This document shows, piece after piece, positions 4,347 through 28,292 of a DNA stretch of 64,000 nt. The stretch is from Heterodontus francisci (taxonomy: Eukaryota). The notes under the pieces are model-generated. The model did no database searches. It was given only the letters and a program-made list of their open reading frames with translations, and was not told the origin of the DNA. The stretch spans positions 50,252,430 to 50,316,429 of the forward strand of contig NC_090399.1 in assembly GCF_036365525.1 (NCBI RefSeq). Reading direction: 5' to 3'. The first letter of the stretch is position 1, and every line of letters begins with the position of its first letter. A program made the translations under genes and the position numbers.

Positions 4347-4853
4347 AGATGATATATAGATCAGAGGCATTTCTGTGGAAATTGATTATTTGAAGCTGTG
4401 TTCTGGTGAATTCGACCTGATTAATAGGCCAAGTCACATGGAATGAGATAGGTTTGTAATGGAGCAAGTTGAGAATGTTGAGATGGGTGAAATTATCCGG
4501 GAAAGGGCAGCTTGTTGGGTGATTCCTGTTTTCTTGCTGTGTCTCAATGTTTATTCATATATATGGGGGTGAGATCAATCTTTTCCAGTATTCCATGATG
4601 GACAATGTGAATCCAGGAGGCAGTGTGACTGGAGAATGGGACTCACTGTTGGAAGTATCTCAGAGAGAGCAGGAAGTGGAGACTAACAAGGACAGACTCG
4701 TCTCCCATGATGGAGAATCGGAGACGAATAAACAACAGATATTAACAGTAATAAGTGTGTGTGTAGGGAGGAGGGGTCGATGTCCCGGCTGAGACAATGA
4801 CGTATTAACCATGTCATTCTACACTCTAACTGGTCTCTCATTAACAATCCACT

Positions 4854-5422: not shown

Positions 5423-5683
5423 CAGATGTCTGGTTTGTACTCTTCATTATCATATTCAGATTCTCCTTTGCCATGTCTGATCGTGTATGCAGACGACGTG
5501 TGAGATCATCCCAGTGTTCCACACTGAAATAGTCTGCCATGAATTGCTGCCTCGGGATTAACCGACCAATATTCGTGTCATAACAATCTATTTGAACTCC
5601 ATCGACCACCGCGAATCCAGTAAACTGAGGGAAATATTCTAACCCGAAGACTGCTGTGTATATCAAAGTAAATGTGTTGCTAT
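5423..5683 (-). CDS. MHC class I-like gene A, exon 2 (alpha1 domain)
   Basis: 261-bp exon between acceptor ttgttttacAG and donor G|GTAAG, phase 1/1. Translates (D)SNTFTLIYTAVFGLEYFPQFTGFAVVDGVQIDCYDTNIGRLIPRQQFMADYFSVEHWDDLTRRLHTRSDMAKENLNMIMKSTNQTS(G). Class I alpha1 hallmarks present: YTAV, P.F, VDG.Q, PR, W60 and the N86 sequon NQT. Confidence 0.92.
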
Positions 5684-5984
5684 CTGTAAAACAAACAATG
5701 AAAGGGAAATATTAATAAACATGTACACTCATTACTAGTGAGACCCATCCACACAGTGACAATCTCCAATAGTCCAGCACTTTATCACAATGTCAGAATC
5801 ATGTCAGATATTATAACCAGAAAAATATTATGCTGGGTCAGAATTAGATGGCTGAAGTCTCACAAACAGGGAGTAAACACGGAATCAGAGTCACTCACAT
5901 AACCAATGAAGTGAGTGTGTACACGTGGGAGAGAGGCTGGGAACCAGGCACGTTTTAAACAGAAGCTCTCTCATGAATGAACAA

Positions 5985-8900
5985 TAACCCAGAACACACC
6001 CGCTCTATGTCTAACCCAGAACAGCAACCTGGGACACACCCAGACTATCTCTAAACCGGAACAGTAGCCTGGACACACCTAGTCTATCTCGACCCCTTAA
6101 CAGTAACCTGGGACTCTCCCTGTCTCTCTGTAACCTGGAGCAGTAACCCTGGACGTTCCAGTCTATCTCTACCCGGAACATTAACCTGAGACACAGCCTG
6201 TCCATCTTTACCCGGAAATGTAACTCGAGACAAACTGGGTCTATCTCTAACACAGAAGAGTAACCCGGTATACACCCGGTCTATCTCTAACTCCGAAGAG
6301 TAACCCGGGACACACCTGGTCTATCTCTAACCTGGAACAGTAACCTGGGACACATCCGGTCCATCTCTAACACGGTCAGTAACCTGGGACACACCTGGTC
6401 TAACTCTAACCCAGAAATGTAAATTGGGAGATACCCGGTCTACCACTAAATTGGGACAGTATCCCATGACATATCCGGTCTATCTGTAACCCAGAACATT
6501 AACCCAGGACAGACCAAGTCCATCAGGAAACTGGAACAGGAACCCTTGACACACCCGGTTTATCTCTAACCCGGAACAGTACCCTGGGACAAAACCTGTC
6601 AATCTTTAACCCGGAAGAGTAACCTGGTATACACCCAGTCTATCTGTAACCTGGAACAGTAATTCCGGACATACCCGGTCTAAGTCTAACTGGAACAGTA
6701 AGCTGGGACAAACCCGGTCTATCTATAACGCGGAACAGTGACCTGGGACACAGCTGGTCTATCTCTAACCCGGAACAGTAACCTGGGACATACCCAGTCT
6801 ATCTCTAACCCGGGACACATCCGGTCTATCTCTAACCTGGAACAATAACCTGAGACACACCCATTCTATCTCTCCCAGGTTTGTCCCGGGTCTATCTCTA
6901 ACCCAGAACTGTAACCTGGGACACACCCAGTCTATCTCTAACCAGGAACATAAACCCAGGACATTTCCGGTCGATGTCGAACCCGGAAAAGAAACCCGGA
7001 TACACCCGGTTTATCTCTAATCCGGAACACTAATCTGGGACACACCCAGTCCATCTCTAACCTGGGACACAGCCCGTCTATCTCGAACCCGTGACAGCAA
7101 ACCGAGACATACCCGGTCTATCTCCAACCGGAACAGTAACCCGGGACACACCCGAACCATCACTAAAGTGGAACAGTAATCGAGGACCCACCCGGTCGAG
7201 CTCTAACCCGAACAGTAACCCGGGACAAACCCGGTCAATCTCTAACCCGGAACAGTAATCCGGGACACACCTGGTCTATCTCTAACCCGGAACAGTGACC
7301 CTGGGACATACCCAGTCCACCGCTAACCCGGGACAGTAACCTGGGATACTCCCAGTCCTTCTCTAACCCGGAACAGTACTCCGGGACACACCTGTTCAAT
7401 CTCTAACTGGGAAGAGTAACCCGGGACTCATCCGGTCCATCTCTAACCCCGAAAAGTAACCCGGGTCACACCTGGTCTATCTCTAACCTGGAACAGTAAC
7501 CTGGGACACATCCGGTCTATCTCTAATACCGAAGAGTAACCCGGGACACACCTGGTCCATCTCTAACCTGGACCAGTAAACTGGGACACATCCGGTCTAT
7601 CTCTAACCCTGAAGAGTAACCCGGGACACACCTGGTCTATCTCTAACCTGGAACAGTAACCTGGGACACATCCGGTCCATCTCTAACACCGAAGAGTAAC
7701 CTGGGACATATGCGGTCCATCTCTAACCTGGAACAGTAACCTGGGACACATCCGGTCCATCTCTAACCCCGAAGAGTAACCCGGGACACACCTGGTCTAT
7801 CTTTAACCTGGAACAGTAACCTGGGAGACATCCGGTCCATCTCTAACCTGGAACAGTAACCTGGGACACATCCGGTCCATCTCTAACCCCGAAGAGTAAC
7901 CCGGGACACACCTGGTCTATCTCTAACCTGGAACAGTAACCTGGGACACATCCGGTCCATCTATAACCTGGAACTGTAACCTGGGACACATCCGGTCCAT
8001 CTCTAACCCCGAAGAGTCACCCGGGACACACCTGGTCTATCTCTAACCTGGAACAGTAACCTGGGACACATCCGGTCCATCTCTAACCCCGAAGAGTAAC
8101 CCGGGACACACCTGGTCTATCTCTAACCTGGAACAGTAACCTGGGACACATCCGGTCCATCTCTAACAGGACAGAGGAATCTGAGACACACCCGGTCTAT
8201 CTTTAACGCAGAAAGGTTAGCTGGGACAAACCCGGTCTGTCTCTAAACCACAAGGATAACCAAGGACACACCCGGTCTATCTCTAACTGGGAAGAGTAAC
8301 CCGGGACACACCCGGTCTATCTCTAACCTGGAACCGTACCCCGGGACATACCTGTGTAACTTTAATGCAGAAAAGTTACTTGGGACAAATCGGGTCTGTC
8401 TCTAACCCACGACAGTATACCGGGACACCCGGTCTATCTATAATCTGGAACAGTAATCTGAGACACACCCGGTCCAACTTTATCCCAGCACAGTTACCTG
8501 GGACACACCTAGTCTACCTCTAACACGGTCAGTAACCTGGGACACACCTGGTCTAACTCTAACCCAGAACAGTAAATTGGGAGATACCCGGTCTACCACT
8601 AAATTGGGACAGTATCCCATGACATATCTGGTCTATCTGTAACCCAGAACATTAACCCAGGACAGACCAAGTCCATCAGGAAACTGGAACAGGAACCCTT
8701 GACACACCCGGTTTATCTCTAACCCGGAACAGTACCCTGGGACAAAACCTGTCAATCTTTAACCCGGAAGAGTAACCTGGTATACACCCAGTCGATCTGT
8801 AACCTGGAACAGTAACTCAGGAAATACCCGGTCTAAGTCTAACTGGAACAGTAAGCTGGGACAAACCCGGTCTATCTCTAACGCGGAGCAGTAACCTGGG

Positions 8901-10423
8901 ACACACCTAGTCTATCTCTAACCCGGGACACACCCGGTCTATCTCTAACCTGGAACAATAGCCTGAGACACACCCATTCTATCTCTCCCAGGTTTGTCCC
9001 ACGTCTATCTCTAACCCAGAACTGTAACCTGGGACACACCCAGTCTATCTCTAACCAGGAACATAAACCCAGGACATTTCCGGTCGATGTCGAACCCGGA
9101 AAAGAAACTCGGACACACCCGGTTTATCTCTAATCCGGAACAATAATCTGGGACACACCCAGTCTATCTCTAACCTGGGACACAGCCCGTCTATCTCTAA
9201 CCCGTGACAGCAAACCGGGACACACCCGGTCTATCTCTAACCGGAACAGTAACCCGGGACACACCCGAACCATCACTAAACTGGAACAGTAATCGGGGAC
9301 CCACCCGGTCTAGCTCTAACCCGAACAGTAACCCGGGACACACCCGGTCTATCTCTAACCCGGAACAGTAATCCGGGACACACCCGGTCTCTCTAACTCG
9401 GAACAGTAACCCGGGACACACCTGGTCTATCTCTAACCCGGAACAGTAACCCTGGGACATACCCAGTCCACCGCTAACCCGGGACAGTAACCTGGGACAC
9501 TCCCGGTCCTTCTCTAACCCGGAACAGTACTCCGGGACACACCTGTTCAATCTCAAACCCGGAAGAGAAACCCGGGACACACCCTGTCTATCTCTAACCA
9601 GGAACAAAAACCCGGACCTTTCCCGGTCGATGTTGAACCCGGAAAAGAAGCCCGGATACACCCGGTTTATATCTAATCCAGAACATTAATCTGGGTCACA
9701 CCCAGTCTATCTCTAAACTGGAACAGTAACCGGGGACACACCCGGTCTATCTCTAACCCAGACCAGAAACCGGCGACACACCCGGACTATCTTTAACCCT
9801 GAACAGAATCCCAGAGCTTTCCCGGTCGATGTCGAACCCGGAAAAGAAACCCGGACACACCCTGTTTATCTCTAAACTGGAGCAGTAAACTGGAACACAC
9901 CCGGTTTATCTCTAACCCAGACCAGAAACCCGGGAAACACCTGGTCTATCTCTAACCTGGAAGAGAAACCCGGGACACACCTGGTCTATCCCTAACCCAG
10001 AACTGTAACCTGGGAGGCACCTGGTCTATCTCTAACCTGGAATAGAACCTTAGGACACACCTGGTCTATCTCTAACCCAGAACAGTAACCCGGGACACAC
10101 CCAATCTGTCTTCAACACGGAACAGTAACCTAGGACACACCCTCTCAATGTCTAATCTGGAGCAGTGACCTGAGACACACCTGGTCTATCTCTAACCCAG
10201 AACAGTAACCTGGGACACACCCAATCTATCTTCAACACGGAACAGTCACCCAGGACATATCCAGTCTATCTCTAACCTGGAACAGTAACCTGGACACACC
10301 CGGTCTATCTCTAACCCAAAACAGTAACCTGGATACACCTGGTCTATCTCTAACCTGGAACAGTAACCTGGACACACCTGGTCAATCTCTAACCTGGAAC
10401 AGTAACCTGGACACACCTGGTCT
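5985..10423 (-). repeat. 40-bp satellite, block 1 (orientation opposite to block 2)
   Basis: + strand unit about CTATCTCTAACCCGGAACAGTAACCCGGGACACACCCGGT. Copies are diverged, with an internal duplication of about 2.15 kb (6368 vs 8521). Confidence 0.95.
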
Positions 10424-13400
10424 CAGATTATTGTTCCAGGTTAGAAATAGTCCGGGTGTATCCTGGTTTACTCTACCCTGTTAGAGATAAACCAGGTGTG
10501 TATTGGGTTACTGTTCCAGGTTAGAGATAGAACGGGTGTTTTCCAGGTTACAGTTTCAGGTTAGAAATAGAATGGGTGTTTCCCGGGTTACTGTTCCAGG
10601 TTAGTGATAGAACGGGTGTTTCCCGGGTTACTTTTCCAGGTTAGAGATAGAACGGGTGTTTTCCGGGTTACTGTTCCAGGTTAATGATAGAACGGGTGTT
10701 TCCCGGGTTACTGTTCCAGGTTAGAGATAGAACGGGTGTTTCCCGGGTTACTGTTCCAGGTTAGAGATAGAACGGGTGTTTCCCGGGTTACTGTTCCAGG
10801 TTAGTGATAGAATGGGTGTTTCCCGGGTTACTGTTCCAGGTTAGAGATAGAACGGGTGTTTCCCGGGTTACTGTTCCAGGTTAGTGATAGAATGGGTGTT
10901 TCCCGGGTTACTGTTCCAGGTTAGAGATAGAACGGGTGTTTCCCGGGTTACTGTTCCAGGTTAGAGATAGAATGGGTGTTTCCCGGGTTACTGTTCCAGG
11001 TTAGAGATAGAACGGGTGTTTCCTGGGTTACTGTTCCAGGTTAGAGATAGAACGGGTGCGTCCCGAGTTACTGTTCTGGGTGAGAGATAGACTGGGTGTG
11101 TCCTGGGTTACTGTTCCAGGTTAGCGATAGATCGGATGTATACCGGATTATTGTGTTGGGTGAGAGATGGACCAGGCGTGTCCCAGGTTACTCCTCCGGG
11201 TTAGAGATAGACAGGGTGCGTCCCGGGTTACTGTTCCAGGTTAGAGATAGACTGGATATGTCCTGGGATCCTGTCCCGGGTTAGAAATAGACTGGGTGTG
11301 TCCTGTGTTACTGTTCCAGGTTGGAGATAGACCGGGTGTGTCCCGCGTTACTGTTCCAGGTTAGAGATAGACTGGGTGTGTCCTGGTTTACGGTTCCATT
11401 AGAGATAGACCGGGTGTGGCCCGAGTTACTGTTCCAGGTTAGAGATTGACCGGGTGTGTCCCGAGTTACTATTCTGGGTTAGAGATAGACCGGGTGTGTC
11501 CTGGGTTACTGTTCCAGGTTCGAGACAAACCGGGTGTGTCCCGAGTTACTGCTCCAGGTTAGAGATAGAACGGGTGTTTCCCGGGTTACTGTTCCAGGTT
11601 AGAGATAGAACGGGTGTTTCCCGGGTTACTGTTCCAGGTTAGAGATAGAACGGGTGTTTTCCGGGTTACTGTTCCAGGTTAGAGATAGAACGGGTGTTTC
11701 CCGGGTTACTGTTCCAGGTTAGAGATAGAACGGGTGTTTCCCGGGTTACTGTTCCAGGTTAGAGATAGAACGGGTGTTTCCCGGGTTACTGTTCCAGGTT
11801 AGAGATAGAACGGGTGTTTTCCGGGTTACTGTTCCAGGTTAGAGATAGAACGGGTGTTTTCCGGGTTACTGTTCCAGGTTAGAGATAGAACGGGTGTTTC
11901 CCGGGTTACTGTTCCAGGTTAGAGATAGAACGGGTGTTTTCCGGGTTACTGTTCCAGGCTAGAGATAGAACGGGTGTTTTCCGGGTTACTGTTCCAGGTT
12001 AGAGATAGAACGGGTGTTTTCCGGGTTACTGTTCCAGGTTAGAGATAGAACGGGTGTTTTCCGGGTTACTGTTCCAGGTTAGAGATAGAACGGGTGTTTC
12101 CCGGGTTACTGTTCCAGGTTAGAGATAGAACGGGTGTTTCCCGGGTTACTGTTCCAGGTTAGAGATAGAACGGGTGTTTCCCGGGTTACTGTTCCAGGTT
12201 AGAGATAGAACGGGTGTTTCCCGGGTTACTGTTCCAGGTTAGAGATAGAACGGGTGTTTCCCGGGTTACTGTTCCAGGTTAGAGATAGAACATGTGTGTC
12301 CCGAGTTACTGTTCCAGGTTAGTGATAGAACGGGTGTTTCCCGGGTTACTGTTCCAGGTTAGTGATAGAACGGGTGTTTCCCGGGTTACTGTTCCAGGTT
12401 AGAGATAGAACGGGTGTTTCCCGGGTTACTGTTCCAGGTTAGAGATAGAACGGGTGTTTCCCGGGTTACTGTTCCAGGTTAGAGATAGAACGGGTGTTTC
12501 CCGGGTTACTGTTCCAGGTTAGAGATAGAACGGGTGTTTCCCGGGTTACTGTTCCAGGTTAGAGATAGAACGGGTGTTTCCCGGGTTACTGTTCCAGGTT
12601 GGAGATAGACCGGGTGTGTCCCGCGTTACTGTTCCAGGTTAGAGATAGACTGGGTGTGTCCTGGTTTACGGTTCCATTAGAGATAGACCGGGTGTGGCCC
12701 GAGTTACTGTTCCAGGTTAGAGATTGACCGGGTGTGTCCCGAGTTACTATTCTGGGTTAGAGATAGACCGGGTGTGTCCTGGGTTACTGTTCCAGGTTCG
12801 AGACAAACCGGGTGTGTCCCGAGTTACTGCTCCAGGTTAGAGATAGAACGGGTGTTTCCCGGGTTACTGTTCCAGGTTAGAGATAGAACGGGTGTTTCCC
12901 GGGTTACTGTTCCAGGTTAGAGATAGAACGGGTGTTTTCCGGGTTACTGTTCCAGGTTAGAGATAGAACGGGTGTTTCCCGGGTTACTGTTCCAGGTTAG
13001 AGATAGAACGGGTGTTTCCCGGGTTACTGTTCCAGGTTAGAGATAGAACGGGTGTTTCCCGGGTTACTGTTCCAGGTTAGAGATAGAACGGGTGTTTTCC
13101 GGGTTACTGTTCCAGGTTAGAGATAGAACGGGTGTTTTCCGGGTTACTGTTCCAGGTTAGAGATAGAACGGGTGTTTCCCGGGTTACTGTTCCAGGTTAG
13201 AGATAGAACGGGTGTTTTCCGGGTTACTGTTCCAGGTTAGAGATAGAACGGGTGTTTTCCGGGTTACTGTTCCAGGTTAGAGATAGAACGGGTGTTTTCC
13301 GGGTTACTGTTCCAGGTTAGAGATAGAACGGGTGTTTTCCGGGTTACTGTTCCAGGTTAGAGATAGAACGGGTGTTTCCCGGGTTACTGTTCCAGGTTAG

Positions 13401-16400
13401 AGATAGAACGGGTGTTTCCCGGGTTACTGTTCCAGGTTAGAGATAGAACGGGTGTTTCCCGGGTTACTGTTCCAGGTTAGAGATAGAACGGGTGTTTCCC
13501 GGGTTACTGTTCCAGGTTAGAGATAGAACGGGTGTTTCCCGGGTTACTGTTCCAGGTTAGAGATAGAACATGTGTGTCCCGAGTTACTGTTCCAGGTTAG
13601 TGATAGAACGGGTGTTTCCCGGGTTACTGTTCCAGGTTAGTGATAGAACGGGTGTTTCCCGGGTTACTGTTCCAGGTTAGAGATAGAACGGGTGTTTCCC
13701 GGGTTACTGTTCCAGGTTAGAGATAGAACGGGTGTTTCCCGGGTTACTGTTCCAGGTTAGAGATAGAACATGTGTGTCCCGAGTTACTGTTCCAGGTTAG
13801 AGATAGAACGGGTGTTTCCCGGGTTACTGTTCCAGGTTAGAGATAGAACGGGTGTTTCCCGGGTTACTGTTCCAGGTTAGAGATAGAACGGGTGTTTCCC
13901 GGGTTACTGTTCCAGGTTAGAGATAGAACGGGTGTTTCCCGGGTTACTGTTCCAGGTTAGTGATAGAACATTTGTGTCCCGAGTTACTGTTCCAGGTTAG
14001 AGATAGAACGGGTGTTTCCCGGGTTACTGTTCCAGGTTAGTGATAGAACGGGTGTTTCCCGGGTTACTGTTCCAGGTTAGAGATAGAACATGTGTTTCCC
14101 GGGTTACTGTTCCAGGTTAGTGATAGAACGGGTGTTTCCCGGGTTACTGTTCCAGGTTAGAGACAGAACATGTGTTTCCCGGGTTACTGTTCCAGGTTAG
14201 TGATAGAACAGGTGTTTCCCGGGTTACTGTTCCAGGTTAGTGATAGAACGGGTGTTTCCCGAGTTACTGTTCCAGGTTAATGATAGAACATGTGTTTCCC
14301 GGGTTACTGTTCCAGGTTAGTGATAGAACGGGTGTTTCCCGGGTTACTGTTCCAGGTTAGTGATAGAACGGGTGTTTCCCGGGTTACTGTTCCAGGTTAG
14401 TGATAGAACGGGTGTTTCCCGGGTTACTGTTCCAGGTTAGTGATAGAACGGGTGTTTCCCGGGTTACTGTTCCAGGTTAGTGATAGAACGGGTGTTTCCC
14501 GGGTTACTGTTCCAGGTTAGTGATAGAACGGGTGTTTCCCGAGTTACTGTTCCAGGTTAGTGATAGAACGGGTGTTTCCCGGGTTACTGTTCCAGGTTAG
14601 AGATAGAACATGTGTTTCCCGGGTTACTGTTCCAGGTTAGTGATAGAACGGGTGTTTCCCGGGTTACTGTTCCAGGTTAGTGATAGAACATGTGTTTCCC
14701 GGGTTACTGTTCCAGGTTAGTGATAGAACGGGTGTTTCCCGGGTTACTGTTCCAGGTTAGTGATAGAACATGTGTGTCCCGAGTTACTGTTCCAGGTTAG
14801 TGATAGAACATGTGTGTCCCGAGTTACTGTTCCAGGTTAGTGATAGAACGGGTGTTTCCCGGGTTACTGTTCCAGGTTAGTGATAGAACATGTGTGTCCC
14901 GAGTTACTGTTCCAGGTTAGTGATAGAACATGTGTGTCCCGAGTTACTGTTCCAGGTTAGTGATAGAACGGGTGTTTCCCGGGTTACTGTTCCAGGTTAG
15001 TGATAGAACGGGTGTTTCCCGGGTTACTGTTCCAGGTTAGAGATAGAACGGGTGTTTCCCGGGTTACTGTTCCAGGTTAGTGATAGAACGGGTGTTTCCC
15101 GGGTTACTGTTCCAGGTTCGTGATAGAACGGGTGTTTTCCGGGTTACTGTTCCAGGTTAGTGATAGAACGGGTGTTTCCCGGGTTACTGTTCCAGGTTCG
15201 TGATAGAACGGGTGTTTCCCGCGTTACTGTTCCAGGTTAGTGATAGAACGGGTGTTTTCCGGGTTACTGTTCCAGGTTAGTGATAGAACGGGTGTTTCCC
15301 GGGTTACTGTTCCAGGTTAGTGATAGAACGGGTGTTTCCCGGGTTACTGTTCCAGGTTAGAGATAGAACGGGTGTTTCCCGGGTTACTGTTCCAGGTTAG
15401 TGATAGAACGGGTGTTTCCGTGTTACTGTTCCAGGTTAGTGATAGAACGGGTGTTTCCCGAGTTACTGTTCCAGGTTAGTGATAGAACGGGTGTTTCCCG
15501 AGTTACTGTTCCAGGTTAGAGATAGAACGGGTGTTTCCCGGGTTACTGTTCCAGGTTAGAGATAGAACGGGTGTTTCCCGAGTTACTGTTCCAGGTTAGT
15601 GATAGAACGGGTGTTTCCCGCGTTACTGTTCCAGGTTAGTGATAGAACGGGTGTTTCCCGAGTTACTGTTCCAGGTTAGAGATAGAACGGGTGTTTCCCG
15701 GGTTACTGTTCCAGGTTAGAGATAGAACGGGTGTTTCCCGAGTTACTGTTCCAGGTTAGTGATAGAACGGGTGTTTCCCGAGTTACTGTTCCAGGTTAGA
15801 GATAGAACGGGTGTTTCCCGGGTTACTGTTCCAGGTTAGAGATAGAACGGGTGTTTCCCGAGTTACTGTTCCAGGCTAGTGATAGAACGGGTGTTTCCCG
15901 AGTTACTGTTCCAGGTTAGAGATAGAACGGGTGTTTCCCGGGTTACTGTTCCAGGTTAGAGATAGAACGGGTGTTTCCCGAGTTACTGTTCCAGGTTAGT
16001 GATAGAACGGGTGTTTCCCGGGTTACTGTTCCAGGTTAGAGATAGAACGGGTGTTTCCCGAGTTACTGTTCCAGGTTAGTGATAGAACGGGTGTTTCCCG
16101 AGTTACTGTTCCAGGTTAGAGATAGAACGGGTGTTTCCCGGGTTACTGTTCCAGGTTAGAGATAGAACGGGTGTTTCCCGGGTTACTGTTCCAGGTTAGA
16201 GATAGAACGGGTGTTTCCCGGGTTACTGTTCCAGGTTAGTGATAGAACATGTGTGTCCCATGTTACTGTTCCAGGTTAGTGATAGAACATGTGTTTCCCG
16301 GGTTACTGTTCCAAGTTAGTGATAGAACGGGTGTTTCCCGGGTTACTGTTCCAGGTTAGTGATAGAACGGGTGTTTCCCGGGTTACTGTTCCAGGTTAGT

Positions 16401-19400
16401 GATAGAACGGGTGTTTCCCGGGTTACTGTTCCAGGTTAGTGATAGAACATGTGTTTCCCGGGTTACTGTTCCAGGTTAGTGATAGAACGGGTGTTTCCCG
16501 GGTTACTGTTCCAGGTTAGTGATAGAACATGTGTGTCCCAAGTTACTGTTCCAGGTTAGAGATAGTACGGGTGTTTTCCGGGTTACTGTTCCAGGTTAGT
16601 GATAGAACATGTGTTTCCCGGGTTACTGTTCCAGGTTAGTGATAGAACGGGTGTTTTCCGGGTTACTGTTCCAGGTTAGTGATAGAACATGTGTGTCCCA
16701 AGTTACTGTTCCAGGTTAGAGATAGTACGGGTGTTTTCCGGGTTACTGTTCCAGGTTAGTGATAGAACATGTGTGTCCCAAGTTACTGTTCCAGGTTAGT
16801 GATAGAACATGTGTTTCCCGGGTTACTGTTCCAAGTTAGTGATAGAACGGGTGTTTCCCGGGTTACTGTTCCAGGTTAGTGATAGAACATGTGTGTCCCA
16901 AGTTACTGTTCCAGGTTAGAGATAGTACGGGTGTTTTCCGGGTTACTGTTCCAGGTTAGTGATAGAACATGTGTTTCCCGGGTTACTGTTCCAGGTTAGT
17001 GATAGAACGGGTGTTTCCCGGGTTACTGTTCCAGGTTAGTGATAGAACATGTGTGTCCCAAGTTACTGTTCCAGGTTAGTGATAGAACATGTGTTTTCCG
17101 GGTTACTGTTCCAGGTTAGTGATAGAACATGTGTGTCCCAAGTTACTGTTCCAGGTTAGTGATAGAACATGTGTTTCCCGGGTTACTGTTCCAAGTTAGT
17201 GATAGAACGGGTGTTTCCCGGGTTACTGTTCCAGGTTAGTGATAGAACATGTGTGTCCCAAGTTACTGTTCCAGGTTAGAGATAGTACGGGTGTTTTCCG
17301 GGTTACTGTTCCAGGTTAGTGATAGAACATGTGTTTCCCGGGTTACTGTTCCAGGTTAGTGATAGAACGGGTGTTTCCCGGGTTACTGTTCCAGGTTAGT
17401 GATAGAACATGTGTGTCCCAAGTTACTGTTCCAGGTTAGTGATAGAACATGTGTTTTCCGGGTTACTGTTCCAGGTTAGTGATAGAACATGTGTGTCCCA
17501 AGTTACTGTTCCAGGTTAGTGATAGAACATGTGTTTCCCGGGTTACTGTTCCAAGTTAGTGATAGAACGGGTGTTTCCCGGGTTACTGTTCCAGGTTAGT
17601 GATAGAACATGTGTGTCCCAAGTTACTGTTCCAGGTTAGAGATAGTACGGGTGTTTTCCGGGTTACTGTTCCAGGTTAGTGATAGAACATGTGTGTCCCA
17701 AGTTACTGTTCCAGGTTAGAGATAGTACGGGTGTTTTCCGGGTTACTGTTCCAGGTTAGTGATAGAACGGGTGTTTCCCGGGTTACTGTTCCAGGTTAGT
17801 GATAGAACGGGTGTTTCCCGGGTTACTGTTCCAGGTTAGAGATAGAACGGGTGTTTTCCGGGTTACTGTTCCAGGTTAGTGATAGAACGGGTGTTTCCCG
17901 GGTTACTGTTCCAGGTTAGAGATAGAACATGTGTTTCCCGGGTTACTGTTCCAGGTTAGAGATAGAACGGGTGTTTTCCGGGTTACTGTTCCAGGTTAGT
18001 GATAGAACGGGTGTTTCCCGGGTTACTGTTCCAGGTTAGTGATAGAACATGTGTTTCCCGGGTTACTGTTCCAGGTTAGTGATAGAACGGGTGTTTCCCG
18101 GGTTACTGTTCCAGGTTAGTGATAGAACGGGTGTTTCCCGGGTTACTGTTCCAGGTTAGAGATAGAACGGGTGTTTCCCGGGTTACTGTTCCAGGTTAGA
18201 GATAGAACGGGTGTTTCCCGAGTTACTGTTCCAGGTTAGTGATAGAACGGGTGTTTCCCGGGTTACTGTTCCAGGTTAGTGATAGAACGGGTGTTTCCCG
18301 GGTTACTGTTCCAGGTTAGAGATAGAACGGGTGTTTCCCGAGTTACTGTTCCAGGTTAGTGATAGAACGGGTGTTTCCCGGGTTACTGTTCCAGGTTAGT
18401 GATAGAACGGGTGTTTCCCGGGTTACTGTTCCAGGTTAGTGATAGAACGGGTGTTTCCCGGGTTACTGTTCCAGGTTAGTGATAGAACGGGTGTTTCCCG
18501 AGTTACTGTTCCAGGTTAGTGATAGAACGGGTGTTTCCCGGGTTACTGTTCCAGGTTAGTGATAGAACGGGTGTTTCCCGGGTTACTGTTCCAGGTTAGA
18601 GATAGAACGGGTGTTTCCCGGGTTACTGTTCCAGGTTAGTGATAGAACGGGTGTTTCCCGGGTTACTGTTCCAGGTTAGAGATAGAACGGGTGTTTCCCG
18701 GGTTACTGTTCCAGGTTAGTGATAGAACATGTGTTTCCCGGGTTACTGTTCCAGGTTAGAGATAGAACGGGTGTTTCCCGGGTTACTGTTCCAGGTTAGT
18801 GATAGAACGGGTGTTTCCCGGGTTACTGTTCCAGGTTAGTGATAGAACGGGTGTTTCCCGGGTTACTGTTCCAGGTTAGAGATAGAACGGGTGTTTTCCG
18901 TGTTACTGTTCCAGGTTAGAGATAGGATGGGTGTTTCCCGGGATACTGTCCAGGTTAGAGATAGACAAAGTATGTCTCGGGACACTGTTCAGGGTTCGAG
19001 ATATACTGGGTGTGACCCAGTTTACTGTCCAGGTTAGAGATAGACCGGGTGTGCCCAAGGTTACTATTCCAGTTAGAGATAGACCGGGTGTGTCCTGGGT
19101 TACTGTTCCGGGTTTGAAATAGACCGATGTGTCTCGGGTTACTGTTGCGGGTTAGAAATAGACCGATGTATCCCGGGTTACTGTTCCGGGTTCGAAATAG
19201 ACCGATGTGTCCCGGGTTACTGTTCTGGTTTGGAGGTAAAACGGGTGTGTCCCTGGTTACTATTCTGGGTTAGAGATGGACCAGGTGTATCCCAGGTTAC
19301 TGTTCTGGGTTAGTGATAGAACATGTGTTTCCCGGGTTACTGTTCCAGGTTAGTGATAGAACGGGTGTTTCCCGGGTTACTGTTCCAGGTTAGTGATAGA

Positions 19401-22400
19401 ACATGTGTGTCCCAAGTTACTGTTCCAGGTTAGAGATAGTACGGGTGTTTTCCGGGTTACTGTTCCAGGTTAGTGATAGAACATGTGTTTCCCGGGTTAC
19501 TGTTCCAGGTTAGTGATAGAACGGGTGTTTTCCGGGTTACTGTTCCAGGTTAGTGATAGAACATGTGTGTCCCAAGTTACTGTTCCAGGTTAGAGATAGT
19601 ACGGGTGTTTTCCGGGTTACTGTTCCAGGTTAGTGATAGAACATGTGTGTCCCAAGTTACTGTTCCAGGTTAGTGATAGAACATGTGTTTCCCGGGTTAC
19701 TGTTCCAAGTTAGTGATAGAACGGGTGTTTCCCGGGTTACTGTTCCAGGTTAGTGATAGAACATGTGTGTCCCAAGTTACTGTTCCAGGTTAGAGATAGT
19801 ACGGGTGTTTTCCGGGTTACTGTTCCAGGTTAGTGATAGAACATGTGTTTCCCGGGTTACTGTTCCAGGTTAGTGATAGAACGGGTGTTTCCCGGGTTAC
19901 TGTTCCAGGTTAGTGATAGAACATGTGTGTCCCAAGTTACTGTTCCAGGTTAGTGATAGAACATGTGTTTTCCGGGTTACTGTTCCAGGTTAGTGATAGA
20001 ACATGTGTGTCCCAAGTTACTGTTCCAGGTTAGTGATAGAACATGTGTTTCCCGGGTTACTGTTCCAAGTTAGTGATAGAACGGGTGTTTCCCGGGTTAC
20101 TGTTCCAGGTTAGTGATAGAACATGTGTGTCCCAAGTTACTGTTCCAGGTTAGAGATAGTACGGGTGTTTTCCGGGTTACTGTTCCAGGTTAGTGATAGA
20201 ACATGTGTTTCCCGGGTTACTGTTCCAGGTTAGTGATAGAACGGGTGTTTCCCGGGTTACTGTTCCAGGTTAGTGATAGAACATGTGTGTCCCAAGTTAC
20301 TGTTCCAGGTTAGTGATAGAACATGTGTTTTCCGGGTTACTGTTCCAGGTTAGTGATAGAACATGTGTGTCCCAAGTTACTGTTCCAGGTTAGTGATAGA
20401 ACATGTGTTTCCCGGGTTACTGTTCCAAGTTAGTGATAGAACGGGTGTTTCCCGGGTTACTGTTCCAGGTTAGTGATAGAACATGTGTGTCCCAAGTTAC
20501 TGTTCCAGGTTAGAGATAGTACGGGTGTTTTCCGGGTTACTGTTCCAGGTTAGTGATAGAACATGTGTGTCCCAAGTTACTGTTCCAGGTTAGAGATAGT
20601 ACGGGTGTTTTCCGGGTTACTGTTCCAGGTTAGTGATAGAACGGGTGTTTCCCGGGTTACTGTTCCAGGTTAGTGATAGAACGGGTGTTTCCCGGGTTAC
20701 TGTTCCAGGTTAGAGATAGAACGGGTGTTTTCCGGGTTACTGTTCCAGGTTAGTGATAGAACGGGTGTTTCCCGGGTTACTGTTCCAGGTTAGAGATAGA
20801 ACATGTGTTTCCCGGGTTACTGTTCCAGGTTAGAGATAGAACGGGTGTTTTCCGGGTTACTGTTCCAGGTTAGTGATAGAACGGGTGTTTCCCGGGTTAC
20901 TGTTCCAGGTTAGTGATAGAACATGTGTTTCCCGGGTTACTGTTCCAGGTTAGTGATAGAACGGGTGTTTCCCGGGTTACTGTTCCAGGTTAGTGATAGA
21001 ACGGGTGTTTCCCGGGTTACTGTTCCAGGTTAGAGATAGAACGGGTGTTTCCCGGGTTACTGTTCCAGGTTAGAGATAGAACGGGTGTTTCCCGAGTTAC
21101 TGTTCCAGGTTAGTGATAGAACGGGTGTTTCCCGGGTTACTGTTCCAGGTTAGTGATAGAACGGGTGTTTCCCGGGTTACTGTTCCAGGTTAGAGATAGA
21201 ACGGGTGTTTCCCGAGTTACTGTTCCAGGTTAGTGATAGAACGGGTGTTTCCCGGGTTACTGTTCCAGGTTAGTGATAGAACGGGTGTTTCCCGGGTTAC
21301 TGTTCCAGGTTAGTGATAGAACGGGTGTTTCCCGGGTTACTGTTCCAGGTTAGTGATAGAACGGGTGTTTCCCGAGTTACTGTTCCAGGTTAGTGATAGA
21401 ACGGGTGTTTCCCGGGTTACTGTTCCAGGTTAGTGATAGAACGGGTGTTTCCCGGGTTACTGTTCCAGGTTAGAGATAGAACGGGTGTTTCCCGGGTTAC
21501 TGTTCCAGGTTAGTGATAGAACGGGTGTTTCCCGGGTTACTGTTCCAGGTTAGAGATAGAACGGGTGTTTCCCGGGTTACTGTTCCAGGTTAGTGATAGA
21601 ACATGTGTTTCCCGGGTTACTGTTCCAGGTTAGAGATAGAACGGGTGTTTCCCGGGTTACTGTTCCAGGTTAGTGATAGAACGGGTGTTTCCCGGGTTAC
21701 TGTTCCAGGTTAGTGATAGAACGGGTGTTTCCCGGGTTACTGTTCCAGGTTAGAGATAGAACGGGTGTTTTCCGTGTTACTGTTCCAGGTTAGAGATAGG
21801 ATGGGTGTTTCCCGGGATACTGTCCAGGTTAGAGATAGACAAAGTATGTCTCGGGACACTGTTCAGGGTTCGAGATATACTGGGTGTGACCCAGTTTACT
21901 GTCCAGGTTAGAGATAGACCGGGTGTGCCCAAGGTTACTATTCCAGTTAGAGATAGACCGGGTGTGTCCTGGGTTACTGTTCCGGGTTTGAAATAGACCG
22001 ATGTGTCTCGGGTTACTGTTGCGGGTTAGAAATAGACCGATGTATCCCGGGTTACTGTTCCGGGTTCGAAATAGACCGATGTGTCCCGGGTTACTGTTCT
22101 GGTTTGGAGGTAAAACGGGTGTGTCCCTGGTTACTATTCTGGGTTAGAGATGGACCAGGTGTATCCCAGGTTACTGTTCTGGGTTAGAGCTAGTCCAGGT
22201 ATGTCCCGGGTTACTGTTCCGGGTTAGAGATTTACCAGATGTGTCCCAGTTTACCATCCATATTAGAGATAGACTGGGTGTGTCCCGGGTTACTGTTCAT
22301 GTTAGAGATGGAGCGGGTGTGTCCCGGGTTACTGCTCCGGGTTAGAGATAGACCGGGTTACTGTTCCTGGTTACTGTTCCAGTTTAGAGATAGACCGGGC

Positions 22401-25400
22401 CTGTCCCAAGTTACTGTTCTGAGTTAGAGATAGACCAGGTGTATCCTGGGTTACTATTCCAGTTAGAGATAGACTGGATGTGTCCTGGCTTACTATTCCG
22501 GTTAGAGATAGACCGGGTCTGTTCTGGGTACTGTCCAAGTTAGAGATAGACCGGGTGTGTCCTGGGTACTGTCCAAGTTAGAGATAGACAGGGTGTGTCC
22601 CGGTTTGCTGTTCTGGGTCAGAAATAGACCGATGTGTCTCGGGTCACTGTTCCGGGTTAGAGATAAAACGGGTGTGTCCCAGGTTACTATTCTGGGTTAG
22701 GGATAGACCAGGAGTGTCCCGGGTTACTGCTCCAGGTTAGAGATAGACCAGGCGTGTCCCGGGTTACTGCTCCAGGTTAGAGATAGGTCAGGTGTGTCCC
22801 GGGTTACTGATCTAGTTTCCTGATGGACCGGGTGTGTCTCGGGTTACTGTTCCAGGTTAGAGATAGACTGCGTGTATCCCAGGTTACTGTTCCAGATTAG
22901 AGGTAGACTGAGTGTGTTCCGGGTTACTGTACTGGGTTAGAGATAGACCGGATATGTCATGGGATACTGACCCGGGTTAGAGATAGACCAGGTATCTCCC
23001 AGGTTACTGTTCTGGGTCAGAGATAGACCGGGTGTGTCCCGGGTTTCTGTTCCATGTGAGAGATAGACCGGGTGTCTTCCGGGTTCTCTTCTGAATTTGA
23101 GATACACCGGGTGTGTCCCGGGTTTCTTTTCTTGGTGAGACATAGACCGGGTGTGTCCCGGGTTACTGTTCCGGTTTAGAGACAGACTGGGTGTGTCCAG
23201 GCTTATTGTACAGGGTTAAGGATAAACCGGTATGTCCCGGGTTACAGTTCCAGGCTAGAGAAAGAAAGACAGGGCGTGTCCCGGGTTGACTGCTCTTGTT
23301 TCCTGATGGACCGGGTGTGTCCTTGGTTACTGTTCCAGGTTAGAAATAGACTGGGTGTGTCCCGAGTTACTCTTCTGGGTTAGAGATAGACTGGGTGTGT
23401 CCTGGGTTACTGACCCAGGTTAGAAATAGACCAGATGTGTCCCGAGTTACTGTTCCAGATTAGAGATAGAACGGGTGTATCCCGAGTTACTGTTCTGAGG
23501 TAGAGATAGACTGGGTGTGTCCTGGGTTACTGTTCCAGGTTAGCGATAGATCGGATGTATACCGGATTATTGTGTTGGGTGAGAGATGGACCAGGCGTGT
23601 CCCAGGTTACTCCTCCGGGTTAGAGATAGACAGGGTGCGTCCCGGGTTACTGTTCCAGGTTAGAGATAGACAGGGTGCGTCCCGGGTTACTGTTCCAGGT
23701 TAGAGATAGACAGGGTGCGTCCCGGGTTACTGTTCCAGGTTAGAGATAGACTGGATATGTCCTGGGATCCTGTCCCGGGTTAGAAATAGACTGGGTGTGT
23801 CCTGTGTTACTGTTCCAGGTTAGAAATAGACCAGGTGTGTCTCGAGTTACTGTTCCAGGTTCGAGATAGACCGGGTGTATCCCGAGTTACTGTTCTGAGG
23901 TAGAGATATTTTGGGTGTGTCCTGGGTTACTGTTCCAGGTTGGAGATAGACCGGGTGTGTCCCGCGTTACTGTTCCAGGTTAGAGATAGACTGGGTGTGT
24001 CCTGGGTTACGGTTCCATTAGAGATAGACCGGGTGTGGCCCGAGTTACTGTTCCAGGTTAGAGATCGACCGGGTGTGTCCCGAGTTACTATTCTGGGTCA
24101 GAGATAGACCATGTGTGTCCTGGGTTAGTGTTCCAGGTTAGAGATAGACCGGGTCTGTCCCGAGTTACTGTTCCAGGTTAGAGATAGACCGGGTTGTCCC
24201 GAGTTGCTGTTCGGGGTTAGAGATAGACCAAGTGTGTCCTGGGTTACCCTTCCAGGTTAGCGATAGATCGGATATGTCCTGGGATACTGTCCCTGGTTAG
24301 AGATAGACTGGGTATCTCCCAACATACTGTCCCAGGTTAGAGATAGACCAGGTGTGTCCCGAGTTACTGTTCCAGGTTTGAGATAGACCAGGTGTGTCCC
24401 GATTTACTGTTCTGGGTTAGAGATAGACTGGGTGTGTCCTGGGTTACTGTTCCAGGTTAGAGATTGACCGGGTGTGTCCTGGGTTACTGTTGCGGGTTAG
24501 AAATAGACCGATGGATCCCGGGTTACTGTTCCGGGTTCGAAATAGACCGATGTGTCCCGGGTTACTGTTCTGGTTTGGAGGTAAAACGGGTGTGTCCCTG
24601 GTTACTATTCTGGGTTAGAGATAGACCAGGTGTATCCCAGGTTACTGTTCTGGGTTAGAGCTAGTCCAGGTATGTTCCGGGTTACTGTTCCGGGTTAGAG
24701 ATTTACCAGATGTGTCCCAGTTTACCATCCATATTAGGGATAGACTGGGTGCGTCCCCGGTTACTGTCCATGTTAGAGATGGAGCGGGTGTGTCCCGGGT
24801 TACTGTTCCGGGTTAGAGATAGACCGGGTTACTGTTCCTGGTTACTTTTCCAGTTTAGAGATAGACCGGGCCTGTCCCAAGTTACTGTTCTGAGTTAGAG
24901 ATAGACCAGGTGTATCCTGGGTTACTATTCCAGTTAGAGATAGACTGGGTGTGTCCTGGCTTACTATTCCGGTTAGAGATAGACCGGGTGTGTCCTGGGT
25001 ACTGTCCAAGTTAGAGATAGACAGGGTGTGTCCCGGTTTGCTGTTCTGGGTCAGAAATAGACCGATGTGTCTCGGGTCACTGTTCCGGGTTAGAGATAGT
25101 CAGTGTGTGTCCCGGGTTACTGTTCTGGGTTGGAGATAAAACGGGTGTGTCCCAGGTTACTATTCTGGGTTAGGGATAGACCAGGAGTGTCCCGGGTTAC
25201 TGCTCCAGGTTAGAGATAGACCAGGTGTGTCCCGATTTACTGTTCTGGGTTAGAGATAGACTGGGTGTGTCCTGGGTTACTGTTCCAGGTTAGAGATTGA
25301 CCGGGTGTGTCCTGGGTTACTGTTCCACGTTAGAGATAGACAGGGTGTATCCCGGGTTACTGTTCCGGGTTAGAGATAGACAGGGTGTATCCCGGGTTAC

Positions 25401-26578
25401 TGTTCCTGGTTAGCGATAGATCAGATGTGTCCCGGATTATTGTGTTGGGTGAGAGATGGACCAGGCATATCCCAGGTTACTCCTCCGGGTTACAGATAGA
25501 CAGGGTGTGCCCCAGGTTAATGTTCTGGGTTAGAGATAGACTGGATGTGTCCTGGGATATTGTCCCGGGTTAGAGATAGACTGGGCATCTCCCAACATAC
25601 TGTTCCAGGTTAGCGATAGACCGGGAGTGCCCTGGGTACTGTCCAAGTTAGAGATAGACTGGGTGTGTCCCGGATTACTGTCCCTGGTTAGAAATAGACT
25701 GATGTGTTTCGGGTTACTGTTCCGAGTTGGAGATAGACCAGGTGTATCCGAGGTTACTGCCCATGTTAGAGATAGACCGGGCTTGTCCCGGGTTACTGTT
25801 CCAAGTTTGAGATAGACCGGGTATGTCCCAGGATAGTTTTCCAGGTTTGAAATAGATAGTATATGTCCCAGGTTACTGTTCCTGTTTAGAGATAGGCCAT
25901 GTGTGTCCTGGGTTACCATTCCGGGTTAGAGATTGACCGGGTGTGTCCCGGGTTACTATTCCAGGTTGGGGATAGATCGGGTGAGTCCGAGATTACTCTT
26001 CTGGGTTAGAGATAGCCTGAGTGTGTCCCGCTTTACTATTCCAGGTGAGAGATAAACCGGGTGGGTCCGAGATTACTCTTTCGGGTTAGGGGTAAACCGG
26101 GTGTGTCCCGGGTTACAGTTCCAGGTTAGAGGTAGACCGGGTGTGTCCTGGATTACCGTTCCAGTTTGGAGATAGACTGGGTGCGTCCCAGGTTACAGTT
26201 CCAGGTTAGAGATAGACCCGGAGTGTTCTGGGTTACTGTTCCAGGTTAGAGATAGATCGGGTTGTCCCGAGTTGCTGTTCGGGGTTAGAGATAGACCAAG
26301 TGTGTCCTGGGTTACTCTTCCAGGTTAGCGATAGATCGGATATGTCCTGGGATACTGTCCCTGGTTAGAGATAGACTGGGTATCTCCCAACATACTGTCC
26401 CAGGTTAGAGATAGACCAAGTGTGTCCCGAGTTACTGTTCCGGGTTTGAGATAGACCAGGTGTGTCCCGATTTACTGTTCTGGGTTAGAGATAGACTGGG
26501 TGTGTCCTGGGTTACAGTTCCAGGTAAGAGATAGACTGGGTGCGTCCCAGGTTACAGTTCCAGATTAGAGATAAATCG
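10424..26578 (+). repeat. 40-bp satellite, block 2 (about 400 copies, inverted relative to blocks 1 and 3)
   Basis: + strand unit GGTTACTGTTCCAGGTTAG(A/T)GATAGAACGGGTGTTTCCCG is the reverse complement of the block 1 unit. The core (about 11.5-21.8 kb) is highly homogeneous and has higher-order duplications. Confidence 0.97.
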
Positions 26579-26840
26579 GGACATGCCTGGTCTATCTCTA
26601 ACCCGGAACAGTAACCTGGGACATACTCAGTCTATCTTTAACCCGGAATTGTAACCTGGGGCACACCCAGACTGTCACTAACCCGGAACAGTAACCTGGG
26701 ATATACCTGGTCTATTTCTAAATTTGAACAGAACTCGGGACACACCAGTCTATCTCTAACAGGAATGGTATCTGGAACAAACCCAGTCTCTCTCGAACCC
26801 GGAATGGTAGCCCAGGATACACCCAGTCTATCTCTAAATC
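26579..26840 (-). repeat. 40-bp satellite, block 3 (same orientation as block 1)
   Basis: After ...GATAAATCGGG the + strand reads ACATGCCTGGTCTATCTCTAACCCGGAACAGTAACCTGGG, i.e. the block 1 orientation again. Confidence 0.9.
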
Positions 26841-26896
26841 AGAAGAATTATCTCGGTCTAAACACACTCTCGTGCACAACTGGAGTATGGTACGGG

Positions 26897-27320
26897 GGAG
26901 TCCATCAAGACCAAGGAACATTTGGAGGGAAATATTGAGGACTCCCTCCTGACCAGAGAAAATCTGGACGAGATGTTGAGGAGTCCCTCATGACCAGGGA
27001 ACATCTGGAGGGAGCTATTGAGGAGTCCTTCCTGACCAGGGAACATCTGGAGGGAGATGTTGAGCAGTCCCCCCTGACCAGGGAACATCTGGAAGGAGAT
27101 ATTGAGGACTCCCTCCTGACCAGGGAACATCCGGAGGGAGATGTTGAGGAGTCCTTCCTGACCAGGGAACATCTGGAGGGAGATGTTGAGCAGTCCCCCC
27201 TGACCAGGGAACATCTGGAAGGAGATATTGAGGACTCCCTCCTGACCAGGGAACATCCGGAGGGAGATGTTGAGGAGACCCTACCGAAAAGGGAACATCT
27301 GGCGGGAGAAATTCAGGATA
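26897..27320. repeat. 42-bp minisatellite with 126-bp (3-mer) higher-order unit, in intron 1 of gene A
   Basis: CTGACCAGGGAACATCTGGAGGGAGATGTTGAGGAGTCC(T)TC recurs at 27032, 27074, 27116, 27158, 27200 and 27242. Confidence 0.9.
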
Positions 27321-27981
27321 ACCCGAGGGTGGGACTGTTGTTCATTCTCATAAGGAGGAAATGTGGTGTGAGTGATTTCAGGATTGAAATGAAGTGAAAG
27401 AGAGATATTTGGGAGGATGATGTGTGACACCATGGGGAAGCAGTCACTGTATGAACAATCTCACTGTCACAGGGTGATGGACAATCTGGAGCAGTATCTC
27501 CAGTCTCCTTCACAGATCTTTTTAATCACCCCTCACACATGGCCAGTAGGATAGTGATGGTCTTAGATAACCTGGCCTATTTAACCATGAGGGCATCACA
27601 GCTGAGCCTGGTGTGGGTTAAACCTGGATTATCATTTTCCTCCCGCAGTGTTTTGAAGATTTTTGACCCAGGAGTAATGAAACTGTTTTGCTTTTTCCAA
27701 CAGATGTGAAAATTAAAATTGCCCATTTGAAACATTTTCCATTTGCTCCAAGCTTCTCTGATCTCAGTGTTTCCACATCCTTCTGTCAGGAGACCTGGAG
27801 ACAAATCCCATCAGAGTCTTCCACACTGTACTGTCTTCAATGGTGTAAAATATCAGACTGGGTGTAGAACAGGAGGCTGATCAAACATCACCCATTTCAA
27901 ACCCTCACCCAAAGTTTAACATTAACCCCATCGAGAGACAGAGAGAGAGAGTGAGAATGGAAAACTGAATTCTGTACTTAC

Positions 27982-28033
27982 CGGGATAGACCCAGGAAAA
28001 ACACAGGGAGATGGAGAAAAGGATCAGCAACAT
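27982..28033 (-). CDS. MHC class I-like gene A, exon 1 (signal peptide)
   Basis: ATG TTG CTG ATC CTT TTC TCC ATC TCC CTG TGT TTT TCC TGG GTC TAT CCC G|GTAAGT gives MLLILFSISLCFSWVYP. This is a hydrophobic leader with a consensus phase-1 donor that joins in frame to the alpha1 exon (G+AT = D). It lies directly downstream of the ISRE/SXY elements. Confidence 0.85.
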
Positions 28034-28280: not shown

Positions 28281-28292
28281 GAAACTGAAACT
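28281..28292 (-). promoter_or_regulatory. ISRE (interferon-stimulated response element)
   Basis: AGTTTCAGTTTC on the minus strand is a perfect match to AGTTTCNNTTTC. It sits immediately upstream of the SXY-like module, as in class I promoters. Confidence 0.8.

What the first reader, a model, noticed from the sequence alone, without database searches (positions are those of the whole stretch)
5985..26840. A 21-kb intronic satellite with two polarity switches: a very large inverted repeat inside an ISRE-bearing gene
Seen in sequence: intron 1 (5684-27981) is about 93% one 40-bp satellite. It flips orientation at about 10423/10424 with essentially no spacer and flips back at about 26579. Established knowledge: class I intron 1 is usually short, and long inverted repeats in pre-mRNA form dsRNA that ADAR edits and dsRNA sensors can detect. 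Inference: the pre-mRNA could fold into a multi-kb imperfect hairpin (block 1 with block 2). That could loop out the intron, attract A-to-I editing, yield small RNAs or modulate this interferon-responsive gene. At DNA level it could be a cruciform or fragile site promoting copy-number change.
Basis: partly seen in the sequence, partly recalled or inferred. Interest (0 to 1): 0.7.

Follow-up and report, generated by a model that had tools for sequence, protein, structure and literature searches.

The report
Inverted minisatellite in shark MHC intron
A 21-kb run of 40-base repeats fills the first intron of a spliced shark immune (MHC class I) gene, and its middle 16 kb lies backwards, likely from one old inversion; the RNA is predicted to fold into a long but loose hairpin (about three bases in four paired) that is likely a harmless passenger, not a control switch.

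Summary
Intron 1 (22,298 bp) of a horn-shark non-classical class I gene is 93.6% one 40-bp repeat, which three patterns found nowhere else in the genome. It flips at 10423/10424 and back at about 26582, each junction with 4 bp of microhomology and no spacer. A public contig joins the leader to exon 2, so the intron is transcribed and spliced. An ISRE-like 12-mer lies upstream in 5 of 6 paralogues. One internal inversion, with an 11-kb expansion inside it, best explains both flips. The arms are only 76% alike (81% with G-U; longest helix 31 bp). A hairpin is predicted (twice the folding energy of controls) and ADAR editing is plausible. It is far from the long near-perfect duplexes that MDA5 favours, and probably too divergent for a cruciform. 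I found no sign of selection for pairing; no paralogue has the repeat. Two other opposite-strand repeat pairs lie in 1.66 Mb sampled nearby. Public contigs did not cover junction 1, an uninformative hole. The scan noted strand switches in other genomes and giant intronic minisatellites in this one before. Verdict: real, tidy, ordinary.

The parts
28281..28292 (-). ISRE-consensus 12-mer, 259 bp upstream of the ATG
   Evidence: Pattern match; same motif 284-297 bp upstream in 4 of 5 other paralogues, 8 matches in 764 kb. Interferon response untested.
27982..28033 (-). Coding part of exon 1 (leader peptide)
   Evidence: Translation; N-terminus of P0001/P0010; joined to exon 2 in contigs.
5684..27981 (-). 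Intron 1, 22,298 bp, GT-AG
   Evidence: spliced joint in X5, X7, X8.
5820..27468 (.). 21.65-kb segment absent from the closest paralogue (C130), whose intron joins the two flanks over a CAG overlap
   Evidence: Its non-repeat ends match nowhere else in the genome.
26897..27309 (+). Unrelated 42-bp minisatellite, 9.9 copies, inside the same segment
26583..26845 (+). Block 3: about 6.5 diverged 40-bp units, likely the natural end of the original array
26577..26582 (.). Junction 2: 4-bp microhomology in the register of the monomer's own 5-bp inverted repeat
21785..26582 (-). Block 2, old part: diverged units like block 1, with internal duplicates of 94-99%
10517..21824 (-). Block 2, young expansion: 254 units 93.5% alike, with a 2,874-bp duplicate at 100% and a 1,278-bp-spaced duplicate at 99.9%
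10420..10424 (.). Junction 1: 4-bp microhomology, no spacer; tip of the predicted RNA hairpin
5979..10423 (+). Block 1: about 112 diverged 40-bp units (75% alike to each other), with a 2.1-kb-spaced internal duplicate
5423..5683 (-). Exon 2 (alpha-1 domain)
   Evidence: Translation; class I matches; covered by contigs that stop at both exon ends.
1..4347 (+). End of a 54-kb one-way 58-bp array in intron 2 of the same gene (alpha-2 exon at G000:C29:50196661)

Best explanation
A single-locus 40-bp minisatellite fills intron 1 of a spliced non-classical MHC class I gene, and its middle 16 kb is reversed, likely by one internal inversion repaired at 4-bp microhomologies; the transcript is predicted to fold back into a loose kilobase hairpin that would be spliced out, probably edited by ADAR, and likely has no selected function. 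Steps. Shown: three blocks, two spacerless junctions, single-locus repeat, splicing across it. Inferred: the array first grew one-way; a segment flipped by two microhomology joins (end-joining or template switching), leaving 6 extra bases; about 11 kb of one variant unit and exact duplicates grew inside the reversed segment (most simply afterwards). Predicted: block 2 pairs with block 1 (4.4-kb arm) and block 3 (0.26-kb arm) at about 76% Watson-Crick, like an inverted Alu pair. Untested: editing, splicing rate, polymorphism.
For: Outer blocks share one orientation and decay into the flanks; inner ends are abrupt. Junction phases are reciprocal to within 6 bp: block 1 can stop at unit position 23 and reversed block 2 start at 24. 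Junction 2 lies in the register of the monomer's own inverted 5-mer. Three patterns hit only this locus: 13 of 13, 64 of 64, 30 of 30 matches, so block 2 came from this array. It is no recent copy of block 1: longest exact inverted match 42 bp, 13 shared 31-mers among 3,686 and 5,330. No selection for pairing: G-U-type against A-C-type mismatches 5.0% v 4.6% (young) and 6.8% v 6.5% (old); four young-variant changes are transversions; identity at the tip (78% over 200-500 bp) is about the random-monomer mean (75-77%). Arrays of 500 bp or more are 736 of 1,660 kb sampled, and two other opposite-strand pairs were found there. Strand switches in satellite arrays are documented (10.1101/2021.07.12.452052, passages); loose intronic duplexes are only weakly purged (PMC7006430, passages).
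Against: A 6-bp offset has a one-in-three chance by itself (13 of 40 registers). Multi-unit kinship between block 1 and old block 2 did not exceed shuffled order (best 25.7; 6 of 30 shuffles were higher), so continuity across the breakpoints is not proven. Divergence beside the junctions fits a flip only weakly. Neither junction is confirmed in raw reads. Abutting switches are uncommon here: besides this array only one other was found among 88 TRF rows. Absence of a selection signal in one haplotype does not exclude a recent or incidental effect on expression.
Confidence: 0.7

Rival explanations
1. Block 2 was inserted backwards (an old inverted duplication or a re-integrated circle of the same array) into one unit, duplicating 9-17 bp of target, rather than flipped in place. 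Consequences for the RNA are the same.
For: Block 1's last and block 3's first 17 bases cover the same unit positions and agree at 14 of 17. Continuity across the breakpoints was not shown.
Against: Three mismatches in 17 bases is about the level of unrelated units (75%). No close source copy remains: best ungapped 300-bp match to block 1 is 85%. The left breakpoint is in exact phase for an inversion.
Confidence: 0.12
2. One or both junctions are assembly errors, and the true array is one-way or differently arranged.
For: The array (21 kb) with an 11-kb near-homogeneous core and a 2,874-bp exact duplicate is hard to assemble; only 5% of 31-mers in the young block are unique. An assembly gap lies 81 kb from the gene's start. 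No raw-read support for either junction is in hand.
Against: A false flip needs long near-identical inverted overlaps and a fold-back read artefact gives identical arms (my own knowledge); the longest exact inverted match is 42 bp. Both junctions have mostly unique 31-mers on at least one side (72% block 1, 60% old block 2, 95% block 3), carry microhomology and are near-reciprocal. The exact duplicate could be an artefact without affecting the flips.
Confidence: 0.1
3. The inverted array is a working RNA element: its hairpin loops out the intron, draws ADAR or yields small RNAs, and so tunes an interferon-inducible class I gene or signals to dsRNA sensors.
For: Strong predicted fold-back at both junctions; 4.4-kb potential arm with a very short loop and 1,380 + 871 adenosines in the two arms; conserved ISRE-like motif; short loops favour immunogenicity of inverted Alu pairs (PMC12695637, passages).
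Against: No selection for pairing; not shared by 5 paralogue introns; immunogenic dsRNAs are depleted of introns (PMC12695637); best identity over 300 bp is 78% gapped and 85% ungapped, below the >96% class (PMC7006430); no exon between the arms; the gene model also spans a 61-kb intron 2 whose array never flips.
Confidence: 0.06
4. Junction 1 extrudes a cruciform and is a fragile site that drove the expansion of block 2.
For: The young expansion starts about two units from junction 1. In long single-stranded DNA, 75%-alike inverted Alus still cause rearrangements in yeast (PMC10164571, passages).
Against: In double-stranded DNA the same paper reports a 1,087-fold drop at 75% identity; the tip has mismatches within a few bases and is not homogenised; larger arrays nearby (54, 79 kb) grew without a detected flip.
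Confidence: 0.05

Closest known systems
Strand switches (inversion breakpoints) in human satellite arrays, T2T-CHM13 (10.1101/2021.07.12.452052; passages read)
   Same: A tandem array with an internal reversed segment; such inversions are reported in alpha, beta and HSat3 arrays, one of them polymorphic.
   Different: Here a single-locus 40-bp minisatellite of 21 kb inside a transcribed intron, not a pericentromeric megabase array.
Intronic inverted Alu pairs, the common ADAR substrates (PMC7006430 and PMC12695637, passages; PMC13019027, abstract only)
   Same: Inverted repeats above 70% identity in one pre-mRNA, predicted to pair; intronic and spliced out.
   Different: Arm up to 4.4 kb instead of about 0.3 kb; tandem units allow many registers; almost no loop; no exon between the arms; editing not shown.
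Tribolium satellite macro-dyad symmetries (PMC12581902; passages)
   Same: Truncated units joined back to back without foreign sequence, potential hairpin with a short loop.
   Different: There a few conserved junction types recur across arrays and chromosomes; here each junction occurs once.
Repeat-enlarged shark MHC genes (PMC1513397, passages; 10.1101/2025.06.08.657570, passages)
   Same: Shark MHC genes 3-5 times larger than mammalian ones, with simple repeats in a class I gene; intron growth by repeats.
   Different: The passages I saw describe no inverted array.
Elasmobranch non-classical class I lineages, UEA being the multicopy one in the cluster (PMC10751288, PMC12562908; passages)
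   Same: Multicopy, MHC-linked, divergent class I with close relatives across sharks.
   Different: Lineage not assigned: the UEA paper (PMC8454915) is not held and I had no reference sequences.

Membership tests
Internal inversion in a tandem array | Same repeat on both strands in adjacent blocks, outer blocks co-oriented | tested here: met
Internal inversion in a tandem array | Reciprocal breakpoints | tested here: inconclusive
   Net offset 6 bp, chance 13 of 40; multi-unit continuity not above shuffles.
Internal inversion in a tandem array | Junctions present in raw reads | tested here: inconclusive
Intronic inverted-repeat ADAR substrate | Inverted match over 40 bp at over 70% identity in one pre-mRNA | tested here: met
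   486 inverted BLAST segments, longest 4.6 kb at 75%; criterion from PMC7006430; intron spliced.
Intronic inverted-repeat ADAR substrate | A-to-I editing observed | not testable with these tools
MDA5-grade endogenous dsRNA | Over 300 bp at over 96% identity | tested here: not met
   Best 78% gapped, 85% ungapped; longest helix 31 bp.
MDA5-grade endogenous dsRNA | Present in mature cytosolic RNA | tested here: inconclusive
   Contigs show the intron removed; retention levels unknown.
Cruciform-forming fragile palindrome | Spacer under about 20 bp | tested here: met
   About 14 nt in unit register; 4 nt in the predicted fold.
Cruciform-forming fragile palindrome | Near-perfect symmetry at the centre | tested here: not met
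   78% over the first 200 bp, longest exact run 14; threshold from PMC10164571.
Loop-out exon skipping by inverted repeats | An exon between the two arms | tested here: not met
   Both arms lie in intron 1; tblastn shows no exon between.
Tribolium-type macro-dyad | Conserved junction repeated across arrays | tested here: not met
   Repeat confined to one locus; two different junctions.
MHC class I heavy chain | Leader, alpha-1, alpha-2, alpha-3, TM exons in order, open frame | tested here: met
Classical class Ia | Peptide-anchoring residues and alpha-2 disulfide | tested here: not met
   Aligned to solved chains, the Y59 and Y159 positions read H and N and both alpha-2 cysteines are replaced (numbering recalled).
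Shark UEA lineage | Clusters with UEA reference sequences | not tested
   Paper not held.
Interferon-stimulated gene | Induction through the ISRE | not testable with these tools
   Motif present and conserved; no expression data.

The most novel reading that the evidence does not exclude
A chance inversion turned a minisatellite into a 4.4-kb, almost loop-free RNA duplex in the first intron of an ISRE-bearing MHC gene, a heavily edited ADAR sink that slows splicing or, when the intron is retained during an interferon response, feeds dsRNA sensing, so that one paralogue gained feedback control from a tandem repeat.
Probability: 0.06. Interest if true: 0.65.

Novelty: new member of a known kind. 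Interest (0 to 1): 0.24.

Why it matters
As it stands it is a clean case of how a single-locus minisatellite is rearranged: growth, one flip at microhomologies, and a young variant expanding inside the flipped part. It shows that a shark gene is spliced across a predicted multi-kilobase loose hairpin. It is also a ready natural substrate for asking whether tandem repeats, not only transposon pairs, are hyper-edited in cartilaginous fish. A regulatory role would matter more, but nothing here points to one.

Tried and rejected
Junction 1 in public DNA contigs: X1-X4, one sample that may be the source of the assembly, X2 and X3 apparently one data set. Contigs match block 1 up to 10414 and nothing covers 10415-10490 in 4 of 4. 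I do not count this for or against: the 69-nt contig there is a 39-bp loop with no exit and also lacks the branch to an ordinary copy at 10271, so true paths were pruned. No listed holder is on record as RNA; X5 and X6 are guessed RNA, and I rely on the exon-only cover and the spliced joint. X6 showed no leader joint, and its long contig is a paralogue (16 differences). Splicing of this gene's own intron 2 was not resolved: the loose ends at 5422-5431 fit paralogues. Shared rare variants over 3-unit runs between block 1 and old block 2 were not above shuffles; the first version was spoiled by gap columns and dropped. A transposon origin of the 21.65-kb segment was rejected: its ends are single-copy; gain here against loss in C130 is undecided. 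Rfam: 0 matches in 5600-28600. Pfam: no family for the alpha-1 exon alone. A DNA search with array sequence was not scored. Two strand flags were checked: one was simple-repeat noise, one real. One single-bin flag was not followed. That detector missed block 3 of this array, so the background count is a lower bound. Paper searches listed no report of this locus or of an inverted intronic minisatellite in sharks; listings only, subscription journals and supplements unseen.
Full report
The gene. The window is G000:C29:50252430-50316429 of a 6.0-Gb genome. The exon at 5423-5683 (minus strand) is an MHC class I alpha-1 domain, identical to P0001 and P0010, labelled Heterodontus francisci class I. 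The leader starts at 28033; alpha-2, alpha-3 and TM exons lie 56-62 kb left of the window. Both alpha-2 cysteines and two anchor tyrosines are replaced (numbering recalled), so it is non-classical; the lineage is not assigned. A contig of run X5 matches exon 2 without a difference and continues into the leader exon, and X7 and X8 of another organism do the same with a 96%-alike exon. The 22,298-bp intron is therefore transcribed and removed. An ISRE-consensus 12-mer lies 259 bp upstream and is shared by 5 of 6 paralogue promoters, among 8 matches in 764 kb; induction is untested.

The array. It spans 5979-26845, 93.6% of the intron, in three blocks: plus, minus, plus. Block 1, block 3 and 4.8 kb at the far end of block 2 are old, with units 69-77% alike. 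About 11 kb of block 2 is a young variant, 254 units 93.5% alike, including a 2,874-bp exact duplicate. Three patterns hit only this locus (13 of 13, 64 of 64, 30 of 30; the first count equals the window's own), and a profile found no copy at E below 0.08 elsewhere in 1.06 Mb fetched. None of five paralogue introns has it. The closest paralogue, on contig C130, has a 0.65-kb intron that joins our flanks at 5820 and 27468. The extra 21.65 kb has single-copy ends, so it is not a transposon; gain or loss is undecided.

How the flips arose. Both junctions are spacerless with 4 bases that read either way. In unit positions, block 1 ends at 23-27 and reversed block 2 starts at 20-24; reversed block 2 ends at 12-16 and block 3 starts at 11-15. 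That is a reciprocal inversion with 6 extra bases. Junction 2 sits in the register of the unit's own 5-base inverted repeat. Alone the 6-base fit is weak (13 of 40), and kinship of multi-unit runs across the breakpoints did not beat shuffles. But the outer blocks look like natural ends, the repeat has no other source, and block 2 is no recent copy of block 1 (longest exact inverted match 42 bp). One in-place inversion is the simplest account; an old inverted insertion remains possible.

Is it real? A false flip or a fold-back read would leave long identical inverted arms (own knowledge), and there are none. Public DNA contigs did not cover junction 1, but their graphs lack ordinary branches beside it too, so the test says nothing. 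I leave 10% for misassembly.

The hairpin. 500-nt windows centred on the junctions fold at -316 and -306 kcal/mol with about 200 pairs across the centre, against -120 to -187 for 7 one-way windows and -148 and -161 for 8 shuffles each. In register, the 4.4-kb arm is 76% Watson-Crick, 81% with G-U, with one helix of 31 bp and 15 of 20 bp or more. This meets the loose criterion for putative dsRNA (over 40 bp, over 70%) and misses the long near-perfect class (over 300 bp, over 96%) of PMC7006430, which finds the loose class only weakly depleted in pre-mRNA (passages). PMC12695637 finds immunogenic dsRNAs depleted of introns (passages). For DNA, PMC10164571 reports a 1,087-fold fall in rearrangements at 75% identity, though such repeats still act in long single strands (passages). 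Editing is thus plausible; sensing and cruciform breakage are unlikely.

Signs of function. None found. Mismatches that would be G-U in the transcript are no commoner than their mirror class (5.0 v 4.6%, 6.8 v 6.5%). The young variant's commonest changes at unit positions 16, 21, 24 and 31 are transversions that break pairing with block 1; position 38 gives G-U. The tip is no more symmetric than random units. No exon lies between the arms. The same gene's intron 2 holds a 54-kb one-way array.

Background. In 1.66 Mb sampled, nearly all on C29, TRF gave 88 rows of 500 bp or more covering 736 kb. Seven were flagged for an opposite-strand block within 10 kb: two are this array, two a 54-bp pair 4 kb apart at 92% identity, two a 35-bp array with an abutting switch, one a single bin not followed. 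The detector missed block 3, so this is a floor. Giant arrays are the rule here; flips are uncommon but not unique.

Comparison. It is a strand switch of the kind catalogued in human satellites (10.1101/2021.07.12.452052, passages) and, in recurring form, in Tribolium (PMC12581902, passages). It works, if at all, like an oversized intronic inverted Alu pair. Shark MHC genes enlarged by repeats are known (PMC1513397, passages). Eight paper searches listed no report of this locus; supplements were not read. Earlier notes of this scan gave leads only.

Verdict. Real in the assembly, probably one inversion, predicted loose dsRNA, most likely neutral. New member of a known kind; interest 0.24.

Noticed in passing
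G000:C130:770291-785930 and G000:C29:50315407-50361455 (window 62978-64000 onward): Unplaced contig C130 carries a leader and alpha-1 exon and ends in the same 36-bp array that runs on C29 up to a 200-N gap; it likely belongs in that gap and supplies the 5' half of the gene whose alpha-2 to TM exons lie at window 58493-55280.
   Followed up: partly
G000:C29:52142611-52179170: A 54-bp repeat forms a 1.6-kb block and, 4 kb on, a 31-kb reversed block at 92% identity, a much tighter inverted pair than the one studied; gene context unknown.
   Followed up: partly
G000:C29:52238813-52251073: A 35-bp array switches strand almost without spacer near 52239190 and resumes 2.8 kb later in the first orientation, 8-20 kb upstream of another class I paralogue.
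   Followed up: partly
P0001-P0009: This class I lineage lacks the usual alpha-2 disulfide cysteines in P0010 and by eye in the other sharks' sequences.
   Followed up: no
G000:C29:50091283 and 50078683: A leader and promoter 96% like this gene's (355 bp) stand 12.5 kb upstream of an alpha-1 exon of a quite different class I type (36% identity), a possible leader swap.
   Followed up: no
window 27410-27981 and 5684-5820: Against C130 the 5' part of intron 1 is 94% alike but the 3' part only 78%, suggesting gene conversion of the promoter-leader end.
   Followed up: no
G000:C29:50195075-50194962: Isoform X2 (P0001) ends in read-through sequence without a TM segment, a possible secreted form.
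   Followed up: no
window 10424-26582: On the transcribed strand block 2 holds 344 CTAAC branch-point-like words, yet no strong donor motif and one pyrimidine-AG site.
   Followed up: partly
window 11083-11550 and 23500-24100: Pieces of the old part of block 2 reappear 12 kb away inside the young expansion (170 bp exact), showing long-range copying within the block.
   Followed up: partly
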